A DNA stretch of 64,000 bases from the sequence record NC_024142.2; one strand, 5' to 3'. The position numbers and the translations under genes are program-made. The DNA is from Escherichia phage Bp4. Positions 5,012 through 48,705 of the stretch are shown in pieces; within the stretch, counting starts at the first letter, position 1; each line of letters starts with the position of its first letter. A model generated the notes under the pieces. The model had not been told where the DNA came from, searched no databases, and worked only from the letters and a program-made list of their open reading frames with translations.

Positions 5012-5722
5012 ATGCAGAAATTATCGGAAGTATACCGTGGCTTGGCACTAAGTACCTTGAAGGGTACTGGTGCAGTCACTGATGACAAATTAGATATTGA
5101 ACCAGATAGTAAGCCAGAGATATTAGCTGCTATTAATGAAGGGCTGGTACGACTACATAGTCGTTTCCCTCTTAGAACTAATAGCTGCATTGTGGAGATG
5201 AAAGAAGGTCGTACTGATTACCCTCTTCAATCCAAGTATGCTTACTCCAGATTTACTAAGCCTACTCTTGAGATTCAATATCCATACATCATGGATGGGT
5301 TCATGAAACCTTTCCAGGATGACGTTATTAAAATCTTAAATGTGTTTGATAACTCGGGGAATCGCCGTAGACTTAACGACGACTCAGACCCTCATGCAAT
5401 TTTCACCCCTCGGCCTGATACTATTCAGTGTATGCGACCTCGACACTTCGAGGCACTTAACGTAACTTATCAAGCTAAGCACCCAGTACTTACTGGTGAT
5501 GAAGAACAGGAAGTTGACTTAGCAGACACACTAATGACAGCACTTCATAACTGGGTGGGTTATCGTTACCACACTGGTTTGAATACTCCGGAAGCTAATG
5601 CTAAGGCAGCAGAGTATCTGCAAACGTATGAAAGCATCTGTGGTGAGGTTGTTGATTACGACCTGGCTAATGGAAGTATTTCAATTACCGAAACTAAATT
5701 TGAACAACGAGGATGGCGATGA
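5012..5722 (+). CDS. virion structural protein (hypothetical)
   Basis: 236-aa ORF in the structural module, tightly packed. Confidence 0.45.
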   Translation: MQKLSEVYRGLALSTLKGTGAVTDDKLDIEPDSKPEILAAINEGLVRLHSRFPLRTNSCIVEMKEGRTDYPLQSKYAYSRFTKPTLEIQYPYIMDGFMKPFQDDVIKILNVFDNSGNRRRLNDDSDPHAIFTPRPDTIQCMRPRHFEALNVTYQAKHPVLTGDEEQEVDLADTLMTALHNWVGYRYHTGLNTPEANAKAAEYLQTYESICGEVVDYDLANGSISITETKFEQRGWR

Positions 5723-7515
5723 ACGCACACACTCCCTTTGATGCAAAACAGGATTGGACCAATCCATACTGCCAGAATAGTTCCAATGACCCTATGGTAG
5801 ATGCACTACTTGGTAATGCTTACCATGTGGTTCGTACTGTCTACTGTAACCTGGGTAACCTGAAACTTATCTATGACTTCCTTAACCAGTATGGAATGGT
5901 ACTTGGTGTACAGTCTGAAGCAGAACTTAAAGCATTAACTACTAAAGCTAAGTATGCACGTATCTACGGCTTCTCTCGTACAGGTGACCGTCAGGTAACT
6001 GACTACTTATACGTAGAGGGTGACCGTACAGGTATTTTACCCGATGACACTACTGCAACCGGTTCATGGATTACTGTTGCTACTTCTGGCTCTACTGGTG
6101 GTGGTGGTACTTCTTCCAGTGAAGGTGCTTATATTCCTTGGGTATACAGCAATGGTTCCGCTACTGGTGGTGAAACCACAATTAACGTACCTGACGGTAC
6201 TGTGGGTGTACCTTTTATCATTATTAATGGTGACATGCAGTATGTAGGGCGAGGCTTTGAGTTTAACGCAGATAACCTGTCCGTAACTCTGGCTCAGCCT
6301 CTGGAAGAGGGTGATGAAGTAGTATTCCTTCTGACTGGGGTTCCTGCTGTACCAGATAATCCTAACGTTAACGACTGGGTTCAGATTAATTGGTTATACA
6401 ACAATGGTGCTGCTGTAGGAGGTGAGCAGGTTATTGCTATCCCTTATACCTTCCAGTCTATTCCTGCCGTGTATAAGAATGGACTTCGTTTGTATAAAGG
6501 ATTAACTACTGAGTCCTATACTGCTGACCCGGATAGCCAACGTATACTTCTTACTGAACCACTGACAACCAATGACCGGTTGATTGTGCAAATTGGTGGG
6601 GAAGCACAGGTACTGGAAGCATCAGACCATACTCTTCAGGAAGTTGCTCGTGCTGCTAATGTTAAAGATAGTGAAGTAATCCTTAGTACTGATACTTCTC
6701 AGATACTTAATGGTAAAAAGGTAATTTTTGATGTAGCTACCCAACACTGCTATGCCTTACCTACTTTGCCCAGTAATGTTTATATTACGTCTGTTAATGA
6801 AGGTCAGTTAACATTTTCCCCGGGTAATATAACAGTTGATTTGTTACCACTGGTTGACTCAAAGGAAAACATTGTTGCTGTGGTTAAGGATATCTATTCA
6901 CAGTCAACTGGTTCGGTATCCGTTGGGCATGGTTCAAGAACTGTTGCTGACAATCTAGATGATATCAAGCATTCAGCTAACTACCCTGATTTACAAGCTG
7001 CAATTGACGCTACAAATCCACGTGATGATCTGCTCATTACAGCAGGTACATACCCAGGTGGGTATACTTCAGGTAATGCAAACCTAATCGGTGTAGGTTA
7101 TGGTGTCAATTTTACCCCGGGTATTGGTAAAACTTCTCTTACACTTTCCGAGTCTTCTCGTTTATGGCAATACCGCCATGCGGAAAACTTTCTAATAACT
7201 GGGTCAGTAGATGTACCACAGGGCATCGGCATTACTTTTGGTGGTTCGCCTACACCGAACCTGGATGGGCGTTGGAATTTTAAACACATTGCATTTGACG
7301 GGCTTGACATTGGTGTATTTAAACCTAAAGGGAATATTGGTAATACATACCAACACTGCAGCTATTTAGGGTGTAATTACGGGCATAAAACTGAGTCAGA
7401 TCCAAATATGCACGTGGGGCTGATACATGGAGGGATTGCCATTTTGCAGGCATCAATACTTATGGTATTTACCTTAACGGTTCTGTTGGTGGCCCTGCTC
7501 CAGGTGGTGGTCTAG
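5713..7515 (+). CDS. tail/appendage protein, N-terminal segment (frame broken at GGGG 7416-7419)
   Basis: Gly/Thr/Ser-rich beta-type composition; C-terminal ~30 residues are hydrophobic out-of-frame read-through; the protein continues in frame 0 from about 7395. Confidence 0.5.
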   Translation: MAMNAHTPFDAKQDWTNPYCQNSSNDPMVDALLGNAYHVVRTVYCNLGNLKLIYDFLNQYGMVLGVQSEAELKALTTKAKYARIYGFSRTGDRQVTDYLYVEGDRTGILPDDTTATGSWITVATSGSTGGGGTSSSEGAYIPWVYSNGSATGGETTINVPDGTVGVPFIIINGDMQYVGRGFEFNADNLSVTLAQPLEEGDEVVFLLTGVPAVPDNPNVNDWVQINWLYNNGAAVGGEQVIAIPYTFQSIPAVYKNGLRLYKGLTTESYTADPDSQRILLTEPLTTNDRLIVQIGGEAQVLEASDHTLQEVARAANVKDSEVILSTDTSQILNGKKVIFDVATQHCYALPTLPSNVYITSVNEGQLTFSPGNITVDLLPLVDSKENIVAVVKDIYSQSTGSVSVGHGSRTVADNLDDIKHSANYPDLQAAIDATNPRDDLLITAGTYPGGYTSGNANLIGVGYGVNFTPGIGKTSLTLSESSRLWQYRHAENFLITGSVDVPQGIGITFGGSPTPNLDGRWNFKHIAFDGLDIGVFKPKGNIGNTYQHCSYLGCNYGHKTESDPNMHVGLIHGGIAILQASILMVFTLTVLLVALLQVVV

Positions 7516-7520
7516 ATGGA

Positions 7521-8435
7521 TTGGCAATTCGTGATTGCATCATGGAGGCAAGCCCAGGTGGTGGCATTTATTTTAAAGGCAATGGATTAGCTCCTGTAGT
7601 ACCACCTACCATCAGCAATGTATGGTTCGAATTGGTAGCCACTGCAGACACAGTAACTGTTGACGGAGTTCCGCAAGCACCTAGACAGTTGAAACTAGAA
7701 AACGTTCCGGTAACTGTTGCAGAGGGATGCTATTTTAACAATATTGAGTTAATAAACTCTACTCTAGTGGCGAAAAACTGCAGGTTTGATAATGCGTCCG
7801 GTGTGTATGACATTAATGTCAATTCCGGTAGTCAAATCATTGCACATGACCTGATTGTTGGTGGCTCTGTTGGGCCAAAGGTTTTTGTAGAATCTGTATC
7901 GGATGTGTCATTCCCTGTTGCTAATAGTCTGGATTTATCCTTAAGAGGAACCTGTCTGAAAGGACGAATTAAGAGGCTTTCCAATGGTCAGGCAATGCTA
8001 TCTGAATCTTTCGCTGGTGCAGGTCCATGGCAGTTCCTGGGTACTTCTACTGTTGATGCAACTTCCGTAACGGATGGTGTATTGTCAGACACTTGCGGTC
8101 AAATAGTAGTACCAGCAGGAGCTACAGTAATGCTAAATGTACCCGCTAGTTTGGCTCAGTACTACACCCTAGTTTGGGGAGCAAGCCTGAAATTGGTATC
8201 CGGCGATGTAACAGCAACTCTATCGGATAGTATTAATATAGGTAGCTTGTATACCAGTACTGGTGAATGGGTGCACACCTTTGGGGTTGGGCAGTTAGGT
8301 ACTGCTGGTACAGTTAAACTAACCTTTTCCTCCGTGGCAGGTTGCGTTTTACGTATGAGTGATGTGTTTGTTGCTCAGTTTGCTAACAAGTATGATGCAT
8401 ATAATTTTGCTAACTCTCGTATGTCTATTGGCTAA
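7521..8435 (+). CDS. tail/appendage protein, C-terminal segment of the same gene
   Basis: Frame 0 is open from 7395 (…ARGADTWRDCHFAGINTYGIYLNG…); adding one G to the G4 run joins both ORFs into one ~900-aa protein. Confidence 0.5.
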   Translation: MAIRDCIMEASPGGGIYFKGNGLAPVVPPTISNVWFELVATADTVTVDGVPQAPRQLKLENVPVTVAEGCYFNNIELINSTLVAKNCRFDNASGVYDINVNSGSQIIAHDLIVGGSVGPKVFVESVSDVSFPVANSLDLSLRGTCLKGRIKRLSNGQAMLSESFAGAGPWQFLGTSTVDATSVTDGVLSDTCGQIVVPAGATVMLNVPASLAQYYTLVWGASLKLVSGDVTATLSDSINIGSLYTSTGEWVHTFGVGQLGTAGTVKLTFSSVAGCVLRMSDVFVAQFANKYDAYNFANSRMSIG

Positions 8436-8483: not shown

Positions 8484-10598
8484 ATGAACGAAATGTTCTC
8501 ACAAGGCGGTAAAGGCTCTACTGGTATTCTTACCAATAAGCAAGCCATTGCCCGTAAGTTTGGTGTTAAGCAGAATGAAGTAGTCTATTTTTCTGTAGGT
8601 GTAGACTTGGGTGGATACAAAGTCATTTATGATAAGACTACTCAACGCGCTTACTCATTGCCCGTACTTCCAGTAGGAACCACTGCTGTAAGTCTTAGTG
8701 AACATGCAGTCTTGGTTCATTCGGCAGGTACAGTTGATTTGGGTGAACTGGCTGCTGCACGTAGAGAGTTTGTATGCTTATCTGATTCATTTACTACGGG
8801 CTTAGTAGTAAATACTCGAAATGAGCTTTTGATGCATAATGGTATTGGTTATACCTACTTAGGTTCTCTACCCGTAACTATTGTTGAAGGGGCCAACCCT
8901 GTTGGCAACACGGATTGGAAGTCCCAAACGGATCCTAATTTGCGTGCTCAGTTGGCATCTCAGGATGGTATGACTTTAATTGGTAGTGTACCCGACGTAA
9001 CTGCCCTGGCTTCTGTTGGAGCAACAGTAGGGTCTAGTATAATGCTAGATTCGTACTCAGGCTCTTCCGTTGGTGGGGGTATTATGATTGCGGTTCCTAA
9101 TACTACTCCTGTAGATGAAGTTGTAACTTTCACCGGTGCAGGAGTGGTCTGGAAGCGTAAGTTCTTTGATGGCACTGCTACGGTATACGATGCAGGTTAT
9201 ACTGGTACGGGGGATATTGCCCCATTCATTAACAAGGTAAACTCTGCCGGTTACGATTGTCTTGTACCTACATCAGGGACTATTAGTACACCTATCTTAC
9301 TGGATGTAGCTAAGGGGGCTTTAGTAGGAGCCAATAAGTGTACCCTTACGGAAATGGAAGGTGTAACAGGAGAGTATTATTTAACCGTAATCAATTCTAA
9401 TACAGATTACACAGCCCGTGATGCCATTAATGCTACTGCCCTATTAACAGGTATTTCCTTTGTAGGTAAAGGTACTCGAAAGATGTGCTTGGGCAGTAGT
9501 ACTGGAGGGGAGATAGCAGAATTACGTATATCTAACTGCGGGTTTATATCTACCGCAGGTATTGAGTTTAAAGATAATGCATACCGTATCCTGTTTGATA
9601 AGTGCACCATTTCTCGCAGTTTTACTAACTCTGTAATCTTTAATTCCCCGGTTAATGCTGGTGAGGTTATAAAATTCAACCACTGCTGGATGGTTGATAA
9701 TGGGGGTCCATTTACATTTGAGAATGGGCAGTTCATCTTTGATTCATGCTCATTACCAGCAGGTAAAAAGGCAGGCTACTTCGATCCAGTAGTGGCATTA
9801 AGTGATAATGCTACCTTAGTATTTGCTAACGGTAATATTGAGTATCAACCCGGGCAGAGTTTTGTAGGCTTTACTGTGAGTGGAAGCTCACGCCTCAGTA
9901 TTAAAGATTCTACTATTCTGCTTCCAGAAGGCTACAGTACAGTGCCTATTGTTAGTAATGGTGATGGGGTAGTTAGTTTAAATAACTGCTCATTGCCCCT
10001 CTACGGTAACACAACGATTGCTACTGGATTTGCTACAAGACAGTTGATAGGCGGTGCAAGTAAAAAAGTAATGTCCAGAGGGTGCTTCCCTCGTGCAGGA
10101 TTTATTACAACTAACTGGAATCTAGGGAGCATTGTAAGCCCATATATTAATAGTATTAGCAATGGCTCAGGACAGTTTGGAAATACATCTAACTGGACAC
10201 TCTCGCAAACTGGAACAGGTGCTGTCACTGCTACTACAGCAAATGATGTTCCTAACGATTTAATGTTTACAACTTCTTTTGTTTTATCTGTACCATCAGC
10301 AGATGCAGCAGCTAACTTCACTCAAACAATCATTGATTGTGAACCGGGTCGTTATTTTCAGTTTGGTTTTTGGGCTAAAAATACAACAACCACCTTGGCG
10401 TCAATTAGATTCCTGGACCAGCAAGGAAATGCTGTTGCGGATTCCATAGGATATATCATTCCAGTAGTAAACACGTTCAACTTTTACGCTTTGGTGGATT
10501 GCGTTCCTCCAGGAGCTTACAAAGCTGAAATTAATTTTAATGTTTCTTCAGTTGTTGGAGGCGTCGTAATACACAATGCAGTTTATGGATTGATTTAA
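8484..10598 (+). CDS. tail fiber/spike-like protein
   Basis: 704-aa Gly/Thr/Asn-rich ORF in the tail gene region. Confidence 0.5.
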   Translation: MNEMFSQGGKGSTGILTNKQAIARKFGVKQNEVVYFSVGVDLGGYKVIYDKTTQRAYSLPVLPVGTTAVSLSEHAVLVHSAGTVDLGELAAARREFVCLSDSFTTGLVVNTRNELLMHNGIGYTYLGSLPVTIVEGANPVGNTDWKSQTDPNLRAQLASQDGMTLIGSVPDVTALASVGATVGSSIMLDSYSGSSVGGGIMIAVPNTTPVDEVVTFTGAGVVWKRKFFDGTATVYDAGYTGTGDIAPFINKVNSAGYDCLVPTSGTISTPILLDVAKGALVGANKCTLTEMEGVTGEYYLTVINSNTDYTARDAINATALLTGISFVGKGTRKMCLGSSTGGEIAELRISNCGFISTAGIEFKDNAYRILFDKCTISRSFTNSVIFNSPVNAGEVIKFNHCWMVDNGGPFTFENGQFIFDSCSLPAGKKAGYFDPVVALSDNATLVFANGNIEYQPGQSFVGFTVSGSSRLSIKDSTILLPEGYSTVPIVSNGDGVVSLNNCSLPLYGNTTIATGFATRQLIGGASKKVMSRGCFPRAGFITTNWNLGSIVSPYINSISNGSGQFGNTSNWTLSQTGTGAVTATTANDVPNDLMFTTSFVLSVPSADAAANFTQTIIDCEPGRYFQFGFWAKNTTTTLASIRFLDQQGNAVADSIGYIIPVVNTFNFYALVDCVPPGAYKAEINFNVSSVVGGVVIHNAVYGLI

Positions 10599-19779: not shown

Positions 19780-20916
19780 ATGGGCTTATTCAGTGGGAAG
19801 ACTAAAGTATACGTAGCATCCTCTGTCTATAACATGGCAGGGGATATACACAAACGTCCTAACTATATGAAGACTGTAGTCATCGGTAACATTGTTTCCA
19901 ATACAGGATTCACTATGGCAGACACTATCTCTGATAGTTATCTGAATGGACCTGGTATTCGTATGCGATTGTTCTCCAGCTGGAGTAAGAACCACTATGA
20001 TTCAGAAGTTGGTATGGCTGGTTCTTCGTTGGGTGTATTGGCTAAGATTGACCCTACTGTTATAGAGGGTCAAATTACACCACCTGCTGGAGAGTCTGTC
20101 TATGTTCAGGCAGCAGAAATTGGCTTTGCTGACTTTGAGCAATGGTGTGACCAATATCTTTATGAAAATGCTCCTAGTCGAATCATGGAACGATTCGACA
20201 TAGACATCAATGAAGATACTAATGAAATTACTATGACCTCCCTGGATGGTGGTTCTACTATTAAATTCACACCTACTAACTTTGAACCAGGTGCTTTGTA
20301 TCTCTATGCTGATTACTCATTCTATAAGTCCCCGTCTATCAATCCACCGGTAGAGGGACCGACTACTGTCTATGATGATGAGGATGACTTACCTTCTACT
20401 TTGTTATGGACTACTGTTTCAAGTGATACAACAGCTAATACAACTAATCTCACTAAGACTATACAGACTCATTCTGTTTATTCTGATGGTAGACCAGATG
20501 AAGACAGTACTGTCACCGAACCAAGTGTAGATAACTGGAACTCTTACATTAAGGTTTACCGTAGAGGATTCACTGAAAAACCTGATGACGTAACTGTAGT
20601 TGTATCTGACAGGGTAATGACTCATAAAAAGTTTGGTGAGATTCAATCCAGTACTTCTGTAACTACCAATGTAGTTGATATAGGTGGTGGTGTTACTCGT
20701 ACCGATACAATCACTACAACCACAGAGACACTGGTTCGTAAGTATTCCTCCCAGACTACTCGTACAGATACAGAGATGACTGCTGTTGGTACACCTAAGC
20801 TGCTTATCTATAAGCAGAACTCTGGTAACGTTGCACTAGACTCACTGTTCGATACCGAAGCTACTGATAACCGATTCTACCATTCATTCCAATCAGGAAT
20901 GATAAGCAATGGGTAG
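19780..20916 (+). CDS. virion structural protein (hypothetical)
   Basis: 378-aa Ser/Thr-rich ORF. Confidence 0.5.
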   Translation: MGLFSGKTKVYVASSVYNMAGDIHKRPNYMKTVVIGNIVSNTGFTMADTISDSYLNGPGIRMRLFSSWSKNHYDSEVGMAGSSLGVLAKIDPTVIEGQITPPAGESVYVQAAEIGFADFEQWCDQYLYENAPSRIMERFDIDINEDTNEITMTSLDGGSTIKFTPTNFEPGALYLYADYSFYKSPSINPPVEGPTTVYDDEDDLPSTLLWTTVSSDTTANTTNLTKTIQTHSVYSDGRPDEDSTVTEPSVDNWNSYIKVYRRGFTEKPDDVTVVVSDRVMTHKKFGEIQSSTSVTTNVVDIGGGVTRTDTITTTTETLVRKYSSQTTRTDTEMTAVGTPKLLIYKQNSGNVALDSLFDTEATDNRFYHSFQSGMISNG

Positions 20917-21107
20917 AGAATGACCCAATCTATCCATACTGTAAGAAAGCTCTTTATAAAGCTACCGGTGGAAAAATTGATAAGGTAGTAACAGAGCTTA
21001 AGAAGAATGATGATATAGGTGATATTCAGTACATTTATGGCACATTTGGCGTATCTCTTAATACTCCTGAAGATACTGCTAAGGAATACATCTACCGTTT
21101 CTTTCAG

Positions 21108-22433
21108 ATGGCTACTGAAGCATTCCCACCTGACCCAACCTATCCAACCTTGGAGGCAGTGATTGCAGGTTATCAGGCAGCTAATGATGCAGTTGATGCA
21201 TATGTAGAATGGTGGAATAGGACTGAAGGGCACACTATTGGAACTCCTCCACCACTGCCAGAATACCCAGTCATACCTAAGAGAGAATTTAGGGTACATA
21301 GTAATAAGCATTACAAGTATGACATGACCATTGGTTGGAATTACGTATCTGAAACTACCCACTCAGGGCAAGCATGGTCTGGTGCTAAGCAAGGACAACT
21401 TCGAGCCAGGTATGCAGGGGATATAACTCTTACTCGCAAGAACATACGAACTGCTAGTAACTCCGGTTCAGCTAAGAAGTTAGAGGTTACCACTACATTC
21501 TATTCTATGCAGGAGTATGAACTGCTTTGGCAGGATGGTAATAACACTTACCGTAAACTCAGAGTACTGGGTCTAAATCACAATAACAGGGTATATAAGA
21601 ATAAGTCAGTGCATATTGATGTTGCCGAAGCAATGGGTGATGCAGAGGAGAGTGGGTTCATTATTCCACTACATACTAACATCTATCGTTCAATGTCACT
21701 GATTCGAAGTACTCAGCTATCCACTGCCTGCTCCTACTTAGTGATGAACTCATATAAGAAGGTTAAGCAGAAGTGGTATCAAACATCTGCCTTTAAGATT
21801 GTGGTTGTTGTGGTTGCTGTCGTTGTATCCGTATTCACTATGGGTACTGGTGGTGCAGGTATACTTGGGGCATATGGAGCAGTTGGGGCGTCACTCGGTT
21901 TTGTTGGATTAGCTGCTGTAATAGTAGGTGCTGTAGCAAACGCCATTGCTGCAATGATTCTGGTATCTATTATCACTAAAGTATCCACTTCACTCTTTGG
22001 TGATAAGCTAGGTTTTATCATTGCTGCTGTTGCTTCAATGGTAGCTATGAATGTTGGTACTGCTCTATCTACTGGTTCATCCTTATCTACCTTAGCCAGT
22101 GAAATGATGAATGCTCAGAACATCATGCAGCTTACCAGTTCAGTAGGTAATGGTATTAGCCAGTATATTAATGCATCTACGGCTGCTACTATTCAGAAAG
22201 CAGAGAAAGTAATGCAGCAGTACAATACTGATATGATGGCAATCAATAAGCAGTATGAAGAGATGTTTGGTACTGCTGGGCAGGGTGTAATTGACCCTAT
22301 GCAATTTGTGTCAATGGAGTCGATGGATTCTTTCCTCTCACGTACTCTCATGACTGGTTCGGATATAGCTGACATGTCTTTAAACATGATTGGAAGCTAC
22401 TCTGATATGACTCTTAATACTGACCTTGTTTAA
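21108..22433 (+). CDS. virion protein with central multi-TM/Gly-Ala-rich region (ejection-protein candidate)
   Basis: ~100-aa hydrophobic block VVVVAVVVSVFTMGTGGAGILGAYGAVGASLGFVGLAAVIVGAV…. Confidence 0.5.
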   Translation: MATEAFPPDPTYPTLEAVIAGYQAANDAVDAYVEWWNRTEGHTIGTPPPLPEYPVIPKREFRVHSNKHYKYDMTIGWNYVSETTHSGQAWSGAKQGQLRARYAGDITLTRKNIRTASNSGSAKKLEVTTTFYSMQEYELLWQDGNNTYRKLRVLGLNHNNRVYKNKSVHIDVAEAMGDAEESGFIIPLHTNIYRSMSLIRSTQLSTACSYLVMNSYKKVKQKWYQTSAFKIVVVVVAVVVSVFTMGTGGAGILGAYGAVGASLGFVGLAAVIVGAVANAIAAMILVSIITKVSTSLFGDKLGFIIAAVASMVAMNVGTALSTGSSLSTLASEMMNAQNIMQLTSSVGNGISQYINASTAATIQKAEKVMQQYNTDMMAINKQYEEMFGTAGQGVIDPMQFVSMESMDSFLSRTLMTGSDIADMSLNMIGSYSDMTLNTDLV

Positions 22434-22902: not shown

Positions 22903-23769
22903 ATGGCTCAGATAACGTGGAGAAATGTTGATGCACCTAACTTCTCTGGAGTTGGTGACAGCATTCGCACATTTGGTAGCATGATTGGTAACGCCACCTC
23001 CGGCTTAAGTGATGCACTGGGTAATTTCCAGAACGCTGCCAAGCAGGAGGCTGGCAATGCCGTCATGATGAATGCTATGCAGTACCAAGACCCGAATGAG
23101 TACCGTAATGCTTTGGCATCTGGTGCACTGTTTCAGGGGGTTGATCCTTCACTGGTAAATCAGCGTACCCTCCAAAACCTGGATGAACGAGCAGGTACAT
23201 TACTGACACAACAAGGACAGCAGGGAACCAATGACTACATTGCTTATCGCTTTGGTCGTTTACAGGATACTAACACTGCATTAGATAATGCTTCCCCGGC
23301 TATTCGTTTACTGTCTGAGGCTTATCAGTCCGGTGACCAGAACCGTATTAATGCTGCATTAAGTCAGACCCGTGATGCACTGTCTGCACTCCCTGCTGAC
23401 CAACAACTGGAGATGATGGGTCGTCTACAAGGTCAGGGTGGTCAGGCTATTAATCAGGCACAGAATCGTTTTGATTTAGGTGTTGCTCAACGTAATGATG
23501 CTGACAGTCAGGCAGCTATGGGTGTAATGTCACAGATTACCCGTGGTGCTGAGAACCTAATGATGCCCGTCTGTTGGCAGAAGCATACAGTAAGAACTTG
23601 TCCCCAGTTGCACAGGCACGTTTACAGAGTTTACTGGCTAGTACTTACCGGTGTATACGGCAATGGCGTAGGTGCTGCGTCTGCTCCTGGTACTGCTGGT
23701 ACTCGTCAGGGTTCCCCTTACGATGTTACTTACCAGTTTGCCGGTACATCTACCCTATTACTCAAATGA
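22903..23769 (+). CDS. internal virion protein (hypothetical); about 30 codons read out of frame between 23555 and 23650
   Basis: Open frame, but an alternate frame reads protein-like (EPNDARLLAEAYSKNLSPVAQARLQSLLASTY) where the annotated frame reads Cys/Trp/His-rich. Confidence 0.45.
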   Translation: MAQITWRNVDAPNFSGVGDSIRTFGSMIGNATSGLSDALGNFQNAAKQEAGNAVMMNAMQYQDPNEYRNALASGALFQGVDPSLVNQRTLQNLDERAGTLLTQQGQQGTNDYIAYRFGRLQDTNTALDNASPAIRLLSEAYQSGDQNRINAALSQTRDALSALPADQQLEMMGRLQGQGGQAINQAQNRFDLGVAQRNDADSQAAMGVMSQITRGAENLMMPVCWQKHTVRTCPQLHRHVYRVYWLVLTGVYGNGVGAASAPGTAGTRQGSPYDVTYQFAGTSTLLLK

Positions 23770-24029
23770 GTATTGGTGATGTAATTAAACACCAGGATGG
23801 TATGAAGTCGAATCAAGGTGCTTCACCTGTTGGTGCATTCCAGATTAACCAAGCTACTCTGAAAGACTTCGCTCCCAAAGTTCTTGGTTCAGATTGGCAA
23901 AGCCAGCCTCTTTCTCCTGAGAACCAGGATAAGATTGGTAAGGCTATCTTCGAGTCTCGTAAGAACGGTAACCTTAAAGATACTTGGGCTGCTCTGCCTA
24001 ACTCTACCCAGGTGCTTATAAGGATATGA
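23766..24029 (+). CDS. hypothetical protein, ATGA-coupled to neighbours
   Basis: ATG overlaps the upstream stop (ATGA); 87 aa. Confidence 0.4.
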   Translation: MSIGDVIKHQDGMKSNQGASPVGAFQINQATLKDFAPKVLGSDWQSQPLSPENQDKIGKAIFESRKNGNLKDTWAALPNSTQVLIRI

Positions 24030-24862
24030 CTTGGGAACAGATTAAACCTGTTATTGCTCAAGCTGAAGTAGGGGCTGACCCACTTGCTATGGTTCAGAAT
24101 AATCAAGGTAATCAGGCAGTATCTACTCTGGCTCAGGGTATGATTGGTACTCGTTCTATGCAGGATAACACTGGTAGTCTTAACACAGACTTCCTTGGTA
24201 CTGTCACTGATAATACCCCAGTAGGTGAGATTGCTAATCGTTTGCTGGAGGGTGATTTTAAAGGTGCTGACCGTAACTGGGTACTGAATCGACTGAACGA
24301 TATTTCTCAACGTGGGAATATGTCACCTGCTATGGCTGCTGCTGTTATGCAACGTGCACAGACTGGTGTACCAGAGGGTTATATTAGTCGTGCTATTGAT
24401 GCAGTTAATCCATTCATTACCAATGAAGCAGGTAATGGTATGCGTCTTAATGACCGTCAGGTAGAACAGTTAATCGAGGGTGTGAAACGGGGTGAACCAC
24501 TGGAAGGTAGTGTTCGTAACCTTGGTCGTGCTCAAGCTATGCAGAATATTCAGGCGGCACAGACTGCATATGATGCTGCTGTAGCTGCACTGGCAAATAC
24601 CCAGAATAAGATTAACACCGGACAAAGCGGTCTTACTGCTCTTTTACCTGCACGTCAGGAGGCTGTTACTAAAGCTGCTGCAATGCTCCAAGCTGCACAG
24701 GCACAAGTACAGGCTGACCCAGCTAACCTGGCTCCAAGAGGTTTCCAGTCACAGGCTAGTGTGGATAGAGCACGAGCCAAGGAAGATGAAGAACGTGCTG
24801 CACGGTACTTACGTCAGGCACAAGGACTGCCTGAGTATATGCAACCCAGACAAAATCGGTAA
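24026..24862 (+). CDS. internal virion protein (hypothetical)
   Basis: 278-aa Ala/Gln-rich ORF, ATGA-coupled. Confidence 0.5.
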   Translation: MTWEQIKPVIAQAEVGADPLAMVQNNQGNQAVSTLAQGMIGTRSMQDNTGSLNTDFLGTVTDNTPVGEIANRLLEGDFKGADRNWVLNRLNDISQRGNMSPAMAAAVMQRAQTGVPEGYISRAIDAVNPFITNEAGNGMRLNDRQVEQLIEGVKRGEPLEGSVRNLGRAQAMQNIQAAQTAYDAAVAALANTQNKINTGQSGLTALLPARQEAVTKAAAMLQAAQAQVQADPANLAPRGFQSQASVDRARAKEDEERAARYLRQAQGLPEYMQPRQNR

Positions 24863-45865: not shown

Positions 45866-46170
45866 TATTTCTCCTTGGGAATCATGTTTGCCTGGAACTC
45901 TGGTTCAGACATCAGACCCAGGTTGCTAAGAGACAGATAAACGATGTCTTTCAAGTCAACTGAAGTGTCGAAACGCTGGTCCAGACTGATTTTCAGAGAG
46001 TGATTGGCACGAGCCAAATCTTTATAGGTCACGTAAGGTTCATCTGTGAGCAACATTGTGTTCATGGTAAGCAGGGAACCATCATCCACTTTAGGGAGTT
46101 GGAAGACTACCTGTGCTGCTACCATCCAATGATATTTTCTGACTACAGTTTCTTTAGTACTTTTGGTCAT
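45865..46170 (-). CDS. hypothetical protein
   Basis: 101-aa ORF, start overlaps upstream stop. Confidence 0.4.
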   Translation of the reverse strand: MTKSTKETVVRKYHWMVAAQVVFQLPKVDDGSLLTMNTMLLTDEPYVTYKDLARANHSLKISLDQRFDTSVDLKDIVYLSLSNLGLMSEPEFQANMIPKEK

Positions 46171-46661
46171 GCGAATGCCTTTTGAATTATTTGATGAACT
46201 TCTTCTGGGGTAGCGTGATTTGGAATTTCAATCTCGTTAGCCCACGTTGGGTAAAACAAGGATAGTTCCCCACCCAAACCAACTTCTGGGTGAGCAATAT
46301 CAGGATGGTCTTGCCAGTTAACGGCTTCAACCAAGTGCTTGTTCGTGAATTGCAAAGTATCCATGTTGTCACGAATCATGAAGTACTGAGCATCATGAAT
46401 ATGAATACTAGGACGAATATCTAACCTGAACTCACTGGCTCTGACTTTACGCATAAACTCTGAACCAGCACGGTTATTTAGTAGACACCAGCTTTGCCCT
46501 AAAGCATTACCAGCAGTTCTGCCTTCTGCTTCTGCTTCATACGGAGTCTTACATGTCCCACGTAATACTTGAGCCAGTAAAGGAGTACGCACTCTCAAAC
46601 CGAATGCGGCAGTAACATAACCAGTTTTGGCAGCTTCGTCTAGCTTAGCCTGAACCCACAT
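46167..46661 (-). CDS. DNA polymerase, family A, C-terminal segment (motif C)
   Basis: Frame continues upstream as …YGLMENCGFSEEKAKTTEKRYHDLYVVSDMWVQ…; contains HIHDAQYF; separated from the middle segment by a T4/A4 indel at 46732-46735. Confidence 0.75.
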   Translation of the reverse strand: MWVQAKLDEAAKTGYVTAAFGLRVRTPLLAQVLRGTCKTPYEAEAEGRTAGNALGQSWCLLNNRAGSEFMRKVRASEFRLDIRPSIHIHDAQYFMIRDNMDTLQFTNKHLVEAVNWQDHPDIAHPEVGLGGELSLFYPTWANEIEIPNHATPEEVHQIIQKAFA

Positions 46662-46669
46662 GTCGCTAA

Positions 46670-47143
46670 CTACATAGAGGTCGTGATAACGTTTCTCTGT
46701 AGTCTTAGCCTTCTCTTCTGAGAAGCCACAGTTTTCATTAAGCCCATATATGTACCACCATAGGTAAGCAGGAAGGTTGGAGCCTTCGAGTCACTACGCA
46801 ATGATTTGTACTTATGCTGAATGGAGTTAATGGATTCTACCGTGTCTTCTATGTCCGGCATCTGCTCACCAAAGTAAGCATATGCACGAAGACTGTGACC
46901 ATCATAACCATCGGTATATACCTTGAGCTTCTGCGGATCTTTAGTAGTTAAAGCTGAGATACGGTCTTCAAGGCTTGCAAAGTCCAGTCCACAAAAGATC
47001 CAACCCGGTGGTGCTTCGAAGCATTTCTTAATCTTCTTGGCGTATTTGGAACCAGATGGAATGGTTTGCAGGTTTGGCTCAGAGGCAGATAATCTACCAG
47101 AAACCGTTCCCCCAAATTGAGGTTGCCGAATAGGTAGTGCCAT
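46670..47143 (-). CDS. DNA polymerase, family A, middle segment (motifs A and B)
   Basis: GRLSASEPNLQTIP and GLDFASLEDRI correspond to Pol A motifs. Confidence 0.75.
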   Translation of the reverse strand: MALPIRQPQFGGTVSGRLSASEPNLQTIPSGSKYAKKIKKCFEAPPGWIFCGLDFASLEDRISALTTKDPQKLKVYTDGYDGHSLRAYAYFGEQMPDIEDTVESINSIQHKYKSLRSDSKAPTFLLTYGGTYMGLMKTVASQKRRLRLQRNVITTSM

Positions 47144-48633
47144 CCATCCGGACCAGGTTGGGCATTTCTAAAGGCCGGGATGAAGCTAGTGATAATCTTA
47201 TCCACAAGCTTATAGTCGATAAGCGCATTGAGCAGTTCCTTAACATCTTCGCTCTGCGTATGTGTACGCAGTGCTTTAATGGTGTCACCATCAGTAGCAG
47301 GTTGCTTACTCTTAGTAAGACCAAGAACCGGTAAGCCAATATAGTCAAATAACAGCTTCTGTAATTGTGGACCGGAGTTAGGATTAAACTCGATGTCACA
47401 ATCAGCAAGCGTTACCTGTTTCTTCTTGAGCTTAGCATTCTTATCATCTACCCATTCCTGACGAAGCATCAGGGTGAAGTTCTTCATGAGCTTAGACTCA
47501 CGAATAGTTTTCAGAGCCTGGTTCCTGTCAGTTTCCATCTCCTTAGCTACTTGGTTAACGGTATCCATATTCATGGGCATACCGGTTAACTGCATCTGGA
47601 TTATGTCTTCACATGCTGGTTTAAAGATGTTGTTGTAAACATCTAATTGGTCATCAGCAATGAGAGTATCCCAGTGCTTCTCATAGGTGTACCAGGTACA
47701 CAAACCGTCAATGAGGTTGTAGCGTAACAGTTGCTCATTAGGAATAAGACGAATGTCTTTAATGTCATCCTGAGCATAGTTACCAGCATACTCCTGAGCC
47801 TGGTCTTTTAGACTAAGGTGATTACCAGCACAACTGTTAGTAGCCAGGTAGGTGATTAACTTAGTACAGTCCCAGTTGCGTAGCATGATTTCCATACCAT
47901 GCAGTAAGCCTTCTGTATCAATCAGGTTATCCATGAATAACTGATAGATAAGCACATACACGTCGTAGCTAATGTTGTGATACATCTGCCGTTGAGTGTA
48001 CTTAATGAAGAACTCACGAAGAAGATTTCGAACAACATCATTTCTGTTGATACGCCCGTATGGTGCTTCAGTAGCTCCAGGAATCGGCTCGTAGTCCACA
48101 TTAAAGGCTATGCCTTGTGTCTTACTCCAACAGAACGTAATTGTTCCTATACCTGCGTTATAGTGCTTTAAACCGAATGCCTCGATGTCTATAGCCAGTG
48201 GCTTATTCATCTCAAGCAGTTGGTCTAGCCAGGCTTTAATCTTCTCTGGGGTATCTGGATAAGCCTCAAACTCAATGATTCCCTGACCTGGTTCTGCATA
48301 CTGCCCACGTATGTGGTTAAGTAATGCATCCATACCCTGAGCAATCTTAGATTTCACTACAGGAGGGTCATAAAAGACCTGTCTGTAGCTAGGTGCATAG
48401 ATAACCTTCTGCTTACCCCATACTGAATCACAAACGTAGCCGAGGTTAGCCTCTGCTTTTGCTTCTTTAGTCAGTATTTTGAAGTAGTCAGAATCGGTAC
48501 AGATAATGTATTGAGTCTCTGCATCGTCCAGTACTTGTTGCAACTCCTGCTGTATGAACTCCTTAATCTCCCTTGCAGGAGTCTTCTTCTTGCCGGGGGC
48601 AGAATGAAGTTCGATGAAGATGAAATCTTCCAT
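46948..48633 (-). CDS. DNA polymerase, family A, N-terminal segment with 3'-5' exonuclease domain
   Basis: Exo I-like LAIDIEAFGL; true frame ends near 47110, where a C5/G5 run shifts into the middle segment. Confidence 0.8.
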   Translation of the reverse strand: MEDFIFIELHSAPGKKKTPAREIKEFIQQELQQVLDDAETQYIICTDSDYFKILTKEAKAEANLGYVCDSVWGKQKVIYAPSYRQVFYDPPVVKSKIAQGMDALLNHIRGQYAEPGQGIIEFEAYPDTPEKIKAWLDQLLEMNKPLAIDIEAFGLKHYNAGIGTITFCWSKTQGIAFNVDYEPIPGATEAPYGRINRNDVVRNLLREFFIKYTQRQMYHNISYDVYVLIYQLFMDNLIDTEGLLHGMEIMLRNWDCTKLITYLATNSCAGNHLSLKDQAQEYAGNYAQDDIKDIRLIPNEQLLRYNLIDGLCTWYTYEKHWDTLIADDQLDVYNNIFKPACEDIIQMQLTGMPMNMDTVNQVAKEMETDRNQALKTIRESKLMKNFTLMLRQEWVDDKNAKLKKKQVTLADCDIEFNPNSGPQLQKLLFDYIGLPVLGLTKSKQPATDGDTIKALRTHTQSEDVKELLNALIDYKLVDKIITSFIPAFRNAQPGPDGWHYLFGNLNLGERFLVDYLPLSQTCKPFHLVPNTPRRLRNASKHHRVGSFVDWTLQALKTVSQL

Positions 48634-48705
48634 GCTTAGGTCATTAGGCAGCAGGTAGGTTTAATCATCTCCTCCCTTCGGATTTGATGACCGAGGATAG
48701 CAATA

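What the first reader, a model, noticed from the sequence alone, without database searches (positions are those of the whole stretch)
5713..8435. Tail/appendage gene split at a G4 homopolymer (7416..7419)
ORF 5713..7515 ends in a hydrophobic out-of-frame tail, while frame 0 reads a credible continuation (…ARGADTWRDCHFAGINTYGIYLNG…) from 7395 into ORF 7521..8435. Adding one G joins them as …DPNMHVGADTWRDCHF…, giving one ~900-aa protein.
Basis: seen in the sequence. Interest (0 to 1): 0.4.

Follow-up and report, generated by a model that had tools for sequence, protein, structure and literature searches.

The report
Tailspike gene split by sequencing error
The two reading frames are one ordinary phage tailspike gene that looks broken because the deposited genome is missing one G, one of 36 single-base homopolymer dropouts in this assembly, so there is no biological frameshift to explain.

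Summary
A G4 run sits at 7416-7419. ORF 5713-7515 ends in 32 hydrophobic out-of-frame residues. The -1 frame carries the real continuation into ORF 7521-8435, and one extra G gives a 905-aa protein.

The window is a G7C-like N4-type podophage (Gamaleyavirus). Both ORF products are identical to the Escherichia phage Bp4 proteins. The split gene is the homologue of G7C gp66, the virion-anchored branching tailspike. It has a C-terminal beta-helix depolymerase module, and the break falls inside that module.

The near-identical phage PD38 has G5 and one intact gene. Over 64 kb the window differs from PD38 by 3 substitutions and 36 single-base gaps. All 36 are deletions in the window, and 34 lie in runs of 3 or more bases. 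They also break DNA polymerase I (3 times), primase, rIIA and two large structural genes. Independent genomes side with PD38 wherever they can be aligned.

Four independent assemblies have five bases at this site. One reads GGGAG, so the G run itself is not conserved. Uz-1 is the only other record with G4, but it is a zero-indel copy of the Bp4 scaffold and so is not independent evidence.

Verdict: homopolymer under-calling artefact. It is not programmed frameshifting, phase variation or two natural proteins. Interest is low.

The parts
5012..5722 (+). Upstream neighbour: homologue of G7C gp67, a 236-aa virion structural or adaptor-like protein. Context only; it is intact.
   Evidence: Pfam SU10_adaptor, E 4.8e-6. 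phrog_2125 virion structural protein, E 3.5e-92. Same position as G7C gp67.
5713..6861 (+). Conserved N-terminal module of the gp66-type tailspike (virion anchor plus branching domains). This is roughly residues 1-381 of the repaired protein.
   Evidence: 76-95% DNA identity to the 5' ~1.0-1.1 kb of the gp66 homologues of many Gamaleyaviruses. phmmer hit to PDB 9d80_D 'Tail fiber protein' over residues 1-381, E 3.5e-154, and to 6w4q and 7rej. phrog_12242 covers residues 1-432.
6862..7419 (+). First part of the variable C-terminal receptor-binding module (start of the beta-helix), read in the ORF1 frame up to the Gly codon in the G run.
   Evidence: Homologues align continuously through here. 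The AlphaFold model of the 97%-identical P0001 is confident beta structure from about residue 290 onward.
7416..7419 (+). The G4 run. The true sequence is most likely five bases (GGGGG), so one G is missing.
   Evidence: GGGGG in PD38, in Logan SRR28559706 and in GCA_053862665.1; GGGAG in Logan SRR31054953.
7420..7515 (+). Spurious out-of-frame tail of ORF1 (31 residues, LIHGGIAILQ...VVV, then a stop). It is not real coding sequence in this frame.
   Evidence: It has no counterpart in any homologue.
7419..8435 (+). Remainder of the receptor-binding module in the -1 frame: the rest of the beta-helix and a C-terminal beta-sandwich. The annotated ORF2 (7521..8435, TTG start) is only the part after the ORF1-frame stop.
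   Evidence: frame open from 7395. Pfam Beta_helix on residues 571-719 of the repaired protein, E 0.0021, below the curated cut-off..
8484..10598 (+). Downstream neighbour: the second tailspike (704 aa), in the position of G7C gp63.1. Context only; it is intact.
   Evidence: Annotated 'tail spike protein' in PD38 and Uz-1. phrog_4217 tail protein, E 1.7e-290. G7C gene order.

Best explanation
The region 5713-8435 is a single gene for the gp66-type tailspike of a G7C-like (Gamaleyavirus) podophage. Its conserved N-terminal ~380 residues anchor it to the virion and carry the docking domains for the second tailspike. A horizontally exchangeable C-terminal beta-helix module binds, and probably cleaves, the host surface polysaccharide. 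The apparent split exists only in the deposited sequence: a G5 run was under-called as G4 during sequencing or assembly. The same systematic error removed 35 other bases from homopolymer runs elsewhere in this window. The phage itself almost certainly makes one ~905-aa protein by ordinary translation. Shown here: the anatomy, the G5 or equivalent in independent relatives, the genome-wide one-sided homopolymer deletion pattern, and the non-independence of Uz-1. Inferred: that the cause was the sequencing platform or assembler, since no reads could be inspected.
For: (1) PD38 differs from the window across 5713-8435 only by having GGGGG, and it encodes one 905-aa CDS.
(2) Over 64 kb the window and PD38 differ by 3 substitutions and 36 gap positions. 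All 36 are deletions in the window (sign test p 3e-11). 34 of the 36 lie in PD38 runs of 3 or more bases, although only 13% of bases lie in such runs (binomial p 7e-28).
(3) 23 of the deletions fall in 14 PD38 CDSs: DNA polymerase I (3), primase (1), rIIA (2), a 654-aa structural protein (5) and an 884-aa structural protein (1), among others. The window's polymerase is left in pieces. A viable phage cannot carry all of these.
(4) At the 10 deletion positions between 36 and 49 kb, ECBP1, ShWW44 and UE-S5b carry the extra base wherever they can be compared. Only the window and Uz-1 lack it.
(5) Independent assemblies read GGGGG at the G run (Logan SRR28559706; GCA_053862665.1) or GGGAG (Logan SRR31054953), all in frame. 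The 90% cluster holds five full-length 904-906-aa proteins, and the split form occurs only in Bp4 and Uz-1.
(6) Uz-1 has the same length as Bp4 (72,583 bp). It shows 3,822 substitutions but no indel against the window over 64,000 positions. A natural relative at 93.6% identity shows 15 gap openings in 8.7 kb. At 47109 Uz-1 carries UE-S5b-like substitutions with one base missing. It is therefore a reference-constrained consensus.
(7) The junction MHVG|ADTWRDCHF lies in a block conserved down to 31% identity. It sits in the middle of a confidently modelled beta-helix (P0001 residues 433/434, pLDDT 76-94) with tailspike depolymerase fold matches. Neither half could be a sensible stand-alone protein.
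Against: No reads or platform information could be examined. The Bp4 genome paper is not in the library. The G4 is present in two database records, although one search shows they are not independent. One real frameshift could in principle hide among 35 artefacts.
Confidence: 0.93

Rival explanations
1. A genuine one-base deletion in the phage stock that was sequenced. The gp66-type tailspike would be truncated within its beta-helix, and the phage would rely on the second tailspike (8484-10598) for adsorption on its laboratory host.
For: G7C-like phages carry two tailspikes, so loss of one receptor-binding domain might be tolerated on some hosts. The N-terminal anchor and docking module (residues 1-381) would still be made.
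Against: The deletion has the same character as 35 others in the assembly, and these also break DNA polymerase, primase and structural genes. The near-identical PD38 has the gene intact. There is no independent record with G4.
Confidence: 0.04
2. Programmed -1 ribosomal frameshifting, or transcriptional slippage, on the G run. This would yield both a 600-aa truncated product and a 905-aa full-length product.
For: A P-site tRNA-Gly slipping from GGG (7417-7419) to GGG (7416-7418) would produce exactly the PD38 protein sequence. This follows from reading.
Against: There is no X XXY YYZ heptamer; the sequence is C GTG GGG CTG. The 101 nt downstream fold no better than shuffles, z -0.82. The arrangement is not conserved: relatives are in frame, and one uses GGA, which destroys the run. 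The zero-frame product would end in the middle of the beta-helix with a nonsense hydrophobic tail. Four Gs are far too few for efficient polymerase slippage (general knowledge).
Confidence: 0.01
3. A phase-variable (contingency) homopolymer that switches the tailspike on and off in the phage population.
For: The indel lies in a homopolymer inside a host-range gene.
Against: The tract is only 4-5 bases long. Three independent assemblies have G5 and one has GGGAG. The only G4 records are the error-laden assembly and its derivative.
Confidence: 0.01
4. G4 is the true state, the two ORFs are naturally separate proteins, and PD38 and the others carry insertion errors.
For: None beyond the annotation of two CDSs in Bp4 and Uz-1.
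Against: At least five independent assemblies, and more than 38 phage records from other families, have one continuous protein. ORF2 has only a TTG start, 6 nt after the ORF1 stop. Homology continues upstream of it in the -1 frame from 7419.
Confidence: 0.005

Closest known systems
Escherichia phage PD38 tail fiber protein AXY81356.1 (905 aa)
   Same: Apart from the missing G, the DNA is the same across 5713-8435 (the only difference one search lists in that span), so the repaired window protein has the same sequence. The flanking genes are the same.
   Different: PD38 has GGGGG where the window has GGGG.
G7C gp66, the virion-anchored branching tailspike of the Gamaleyavirus two-tailspike host-recognition complex with gp63.1
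   Same: Same genomic position, between the gp67 homologue and the second tailspike and downstream of terminase. The 5' ~1.1 kb (roughly the first 375 codons) is homologous at 77% DNA identity. The literature describes an N-terminal anchor followed by XD2 and XD3 domains, with XD3 docking gp63.1 (PMC8825819).
   Different: The C-terminal receptor-binding module is unrelated at the DNA level; only 41% of the query is covered. This is usual in the genus: St11Ph5 also has 'completely different' receptor recognition units (PMC5764931).
Beta-helix tailspike depolymerases: P22-type head-binding-domain tailspikes of E. coli prophages, tail fibres of Kayfunavirus LM33_P1 and Golestan-type siphophages, and solved K2-2 TSP, CBA120 TSP2, Sf6 and HK620 tailspikes
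   Same: The C-terminal 505 aa are 97% identical to a 772-aa protein on a Salmonella-labelled contig. They are 62-80% identical to proteins carrying PF09008 head-binding domains, and about 40% identical to LM33_P1 and Golestan tail fibres. In every case the match is one continuous piece. The fold matches are to tailspike depolymerases.
   Different: The N-terminal attachment modules differ, each being specific to its phage family. No solved structure matches the C-terminal module by sequence. Enzymatic activity and receptor were not tested.

Membership tests
Homopolymer-length sequencing/assembly artefact | The indel lies within a homopolymer run | tested here: met
   G4 in the window against G5 in PD38.
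Homopolymer-length sequencing/assembly artefact | The same kind of error recurs across the assembly with a one-sided bias | tested here: met
   36 of 36 indels against PD38 are deletions in the window, and 34 of 36 lie in runs of 3 or more bases.
Homopolymer-length sequencing/assembly artefact | The errors break essential genes that are intact in independent close relatives | tested here: met
   DNA polymerase I (3 deletions), primase, rIIA and structural genes are broken. ECBP1, ShWW44 and UE-S5b agree with PD38.
Homopolymer-length sequencing/assembly artefact | Raw reads or orthogonal sequencing show the longer run | not testable with these tools
   There is no read access, and the Bp4 paper is not held.
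G7C gp66-type branching tailspike (Gamaleyavirus) | Gene sits between the gp67 homologue and the second tailspike gene, next to terminase | tested here: met
G7C gp66-type branching tailspike (Gamaleyavirus) | Conserved N-terminal ~380-aa anchor/XD module | tested here: met
   9d80_D, residues 1-381, E 3.5e-154; phrog_12242.
G7C gp66-type branching tailspike (Gamaleyavirus) | C-terminal right-handed beta-helix receptor-binding domain | tested here: met
   The Pfam Beta_helix match is below cut-off, but homologues carry PF13229, the model is beta-rich, and its fold matches are to tailspikes. The model is of the 97%-identical P0001, not of the window protein itself.
G7C gp66-type branching tailspike (Gamaleyavirus) | Forms a trimer, attaches to the virion and docks the second tailspike | not testable with these tools
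   Known for G7C from the literature only (PMC8825819).
Programmed -1 ribosomal frameshift | Slippery heptamer X XXY YYZ in the zero frame | tested here: not met
   The sequence is CAC GTG GGG CTG. Only a single-tRNA slip on G GGG is possible.
Programmed -1 ribosomal frameshift | Downstream stimulatory RNA structure | tested here: not met
   MFE -30 kcal/mol against a shuffle mean of -27.3, z -0.82.
Programmed -1 ribosomal frameshift | The two-frame arrangement is conserved among relatives | tested here: not met
   All independent relatives are in frame, and one has GGGAG.
Phase-variable homopolymer (contingency locus) | A long tract whose length varies among independent isolates | tested here: not met
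   The tract is 4-5 bases. Independent assemblies have G5 (three) or GGGAG (one), and G4 occurs only in Bp4 and its derivative Uz-1.

The most novel reading that the evidence does not exclude
The G4 is real in the sequenced phage stock. This G7C-like phage would then carry a tailspike gene knocked out, or restored at low level by single-tRNA slippage on G GGG. That would make a natural case of host-range modulation through a frameshift in the anchoring, branching tailspike while the N-terminal docking module is still produced.
Probability: 0.04. Interest if true: 0.3.

Novelty: not a real feature. Interest (0 to 1): 0.06.

Why it matters
As biology it does not matter: the gene is an ordinary, already annotated gp66-type tailspike. 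The practical value is in curation. The window's genome is apparently Escherichia phage Bp4, cited in the literature under a RefSeq accession (NC_024142.2) and giving its name to the species Gamaleyavirus Bp4 (taxonomy line). It contains at least 36 single-base dropouts that split the tailspike, DNA polymerase, primase, rIIA and structural genes. These errors have already spread into a second public record (Uz-1), apparently through reference-guided assembly. Any frameshift, pseudogene or 'split gene' signal from this window should be discounted unless PD38 or another independent relative shares it.

Tried and rejected
I looked for the sequencing platform in the literature. The Bp4 genome paper (PMC8193434) is not held. 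Papers that mention Bp4 or Uz-1 say nothing about frameshifts or methods for those genomes.

Pfam on the two separate halves gave nothing. Only the fused protein gave a sub-threshold Beta_helix hit.

I tested for a frameshift-stimulating RNA structure downstream of the run and found none.

I first counted Uz-1 as an independent second observation of G4. I rejected that after finding zero indels against the window at 94% identity, and an identical genome length.

I considered that PD38 might be the erroneous record. I rejected this because three further genomes at ten sites, and four further assemblies at the G run, agree with PD38.

The sequence search of solved structures found relatives only for the N-terminal module. 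The fold of the C-terminal module was therefore assessed on an AlphaFold model of the 97%-identical homologue P0001. In that model residues 1-286 are low confidence and only residues from about 290 to 772 are usable.
Full report
**Observation**

The sequence at 7410-7425 is GCACGTGGGGCTGATA, so G occupies 7416-7419. ORF 5713..7515 (600 aa) and ORF 7521..8435 (304 aa, TTG start) are both listed. Because 7521-5713 = 1808 = 2 mod 3, the second ORF lies in the -1 frame of the first.

After ...SDPNMHVG the first frame reads LIHGGIAILQASILMVFTLTVLLVALLQVVV and then a stop. The -1 frame is open from 7395 and reads VRSKYARGADTWRDCHFAGINTYGIYLNG... into ORF2.

**What the locus is**

Megablast places the window in the genus Gamaleyavirus, the G7C-like N4-type podophages of the family Schitoviridae. 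The translations of both ORFs are identical to proteins AHN83356.1 and AHN83357.1 of Escherichia phage Bp4, which lie on a 72,583-bp contig. The window is therefore very probably the Bp4 genome.

The gene order is terminase, a 236-aa gp67-like virion protein (5012-5722), the split gene, and then a 704-aa second tailspike (8484-10598). This matches gp68-gp67-gp66-gp63.1 of G7C.

- **N-terminal module.** The first ~1.0-1.1 kb of the split gene is conserved at 76-95% DNA identity across the genus. Residues 1-381 match the N-terminus of the solved chain 9d80_D 'Tail fiber protein' (E 3.5e-154; one search gives no source organism for it) and, more distantly, 6w4q (CBA120 TSP2, named) and 7rej 'Tailspike protein'. 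In the literature this is the virion anchor plus the XD2/XD3 branching domains. In G7C, XD3 docks gp63.1 (PMC8825819).
- **C-terminal module.** The C-terminal ~500-600 residues form a different, exchangeable module. They are 97% identical to a 772-aa protein on a 153-kb contig labelled Salmonella. They are 62-80% identical to E. coli prophage proteins carrying a P22-type head-binding domain. They are about 40% identical to the tail fibres of LM33_P1-like Kayfunaviruses and Golestan-like siphophages.
- **Fold.** An AlphaFold model of the 97%-identical homologue is confident from about residue 290 to 772. It is a run of short beta strands followed by a beta-sandwich. Its best PDB fold matches are tailspike depolymerases: K2-2 TSP, Kp7 gp52, CBA120 TSP2, Sf6 and HK620.

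**Is it one gene?**

Yes. PD38 differs from the window across 5713-8435 only by having GGGGG, and it encodes one 905-aa protein. The 90%-identity protein cluster contains that protein plus four Logan-assembled proteins of 904-906 aa.

In tblastn, 39 of 40 phage records cover at least 80% of the C-terminal 505 aa, and every listed record except Uz-1 does so in a single piece. The junction MHVG|ADTWRDCHF sits in a block conserved down to a 31%-identical homologue, which reads KMHAGCDTFRDCQF. One PHROG profile spans residues 296-904 in one stretch.

In the model the junction (P0001 residues 433/434) lies in the middle of the beta-helix, at pLDDT 76-94. A protein ending there with a nonsense hydrophobic tail, or one starting at the TTG of ORF2, would be half a fold.

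**Why it is split here**

I aligned the whole window to PD38. The two differ by 3 substitutions and 36 gap positions, and all 36 gaps are bases missing from the window.

- 34 of the 36 lie in PD38 homopolymer runs of 3 or more bases. Only 13% of PD38 bases lie in such runs, giving a binomial p of 7e-28. The one-sidedness alone gives p 3e-11.
- 23 of the deletions fall within 14 PD38 CDSs. These include DNA polymerase I (3), primase (1), rIIA (2), a 654-aa structural protein (5) and an 884-aa structural protein (1).
- In the window, the polymerase and both structural genes are left as strings of short ORFs.
- At the ten deletion positions between 36 and 49 kb, three further genomes (ECBP1, ShWW44, UE-S5b) carry the extra base wherever they can be compared. 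Each of the three has an intact 2,580-bp polymerase gene.

A phage with three frameshifts in its DNA polymerase is not viable. These differences are therefore errors of the assembly, and the G4 is one of them.

At the G run itself, independent assemblies read GGGGG (PD38; Logan SRR28559706; GCA_053862665.1) or GGGAG (Logan SRR31054953), all in frame. The GGA variant shows that a Gly codon is what is conserved, not a G run.

**The apparent second witness**

Phage Uz-1 (OP312987) also has G4 and the same two-CDS annotation. But Uz-1 is exactly 72,583 bp long, and compared position by position with the window it shows 3,822 substitutions and no indel over 64,000 bases. A genuine relative at 93.6% identity shows 15 gap openings in only 8.7 kb.

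Uz-1 shares the window's missing bases at all ten deletion positions checked between 36 and 49 kb, and zero indels over 64 kb means it shares the rest as well. At 47109 its own substitutions resemble UE-S5b (GCCTCCCA), yet one base is absent (GCCTCCA). Its annotation shows the same broken polymerase, primase, rII and structural genes. Uz-1 is best explained as a consensus forced onto the Bp4 scaffold, so it adds no independent support for G4.

**Rival mechanisms**

- **Programmed -1 frameshifting.** A single tRNA-Gly slip on G GGG would give the right protein. However, there is no X XXY YYZ heptamer, no downstream structure (z -0.82) and no conservation of the arrangement.
- **Phase variation.** This needs a longer tract whose length varies among isolates. 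Here the tract is 4-5 bases, and G4 appears only in the faulty assembly and its derivative.
- **A real knockout in the sequenced stock.** This cannot be excluded without reads. It would have to be hiding among 35 artefacts of identical kind.

**Verdict**

The cause is a homopolymer under-call, so this is not a biological feature. The gene itself is an already known kind, a gp66-type Gamaleyavirus tailspike with a mosaic beta-helix receptor-binding module. I could not establish the sequencing platform, because the Bp4 paper is not in the library and other papers are silent on it.

Noticed in passing
window 1018, 1342, 2123, 2674, 2691, 8444, 20880, 23556, 23650 (2 bases), 23753, 24007, 24886, 36254, 37746, 38336, 38341, 38539, 38652, 43606, 46732, 47109, 48660, 53886, 55316, 56872 (2 bases), 57133, 59082, 60554, 60718, 60723, 61628, 62217, 63996: There are 35 further single-base deletions relative to PD38, nearly all in homopolymers. 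They split DNA polymerase I (about 46167-48700, minus strand), primase (43606), rIIA (53886, 55316), a 654-aa structural gene (22903-24862) and an 884-aa structural gene (19780-22433), plus several small ORFs. Any other 'split gene' finding in this window is probably the same artefact.
   Followed up: partly
L005 and L006 (OP312987.1, Escherichia phage vB_EcoS_Uz-1), whole record: The Uz-1 record has the same length as Bp4 (72,583 bp). It differs from the window by 3,822 substitutions and no indel over 64 kb, and so inherits the window's homopolymer deletions and broken genes (checked directly at ten of the positions). It looks like a reference-guided consensus rather than a de novo assembly.
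   Followed up: yes
L010 751-3069 (GCA_053862665.1, contig DBLANE010000007.1, 153,619 bp, labelled Salmonella enterica): A 772-aa protein here shares 97% identity with the receptor-binding module of the window's tailspike, and about 94% DNA identity over 2.2 kb, but has a different N-terminus. It sits among genes with P22-tail, Tail_spike_N and DUF4815 domains. I have not tested what the contig is; one untested possibility is a large multi-tailspike phage genome rather than a bacterial chromosome. The near-identity suggests recent exchange of the module between different phage types.
   Followed up: partly
window about 6600-8435 (C-terminal module): The same receptor-binding module, at 62-80% identity, is fused to P22-type head-binding domains (PF09008) in E. 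coli prophage proteins. At about 40% identity it is found in tail fibres of LM33_P1-like Kayfunaviruses and Golestan-like siphophages. This is a clear case of tailspike module shuffling across phage families.
   Followed up: partly
window 9641: One of only three substitutions relative to PD38 (T here, A in PD38) lies inside the second tailspike gene (8484-10598). The other two are at 35119 and 63470. I did not check whether it changes the protein.
   Followed up: no
PMC11654681, Fig. 1 legend: The Moo19/B2 paper lists Bp4 as a phage of Enterobacter cloacae. The title of the Bp4 genome paper, and the database names, give chicken-pathogenic Escherichia coli as host. This is a minor inconsistency in the literature.
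   Followed up: no
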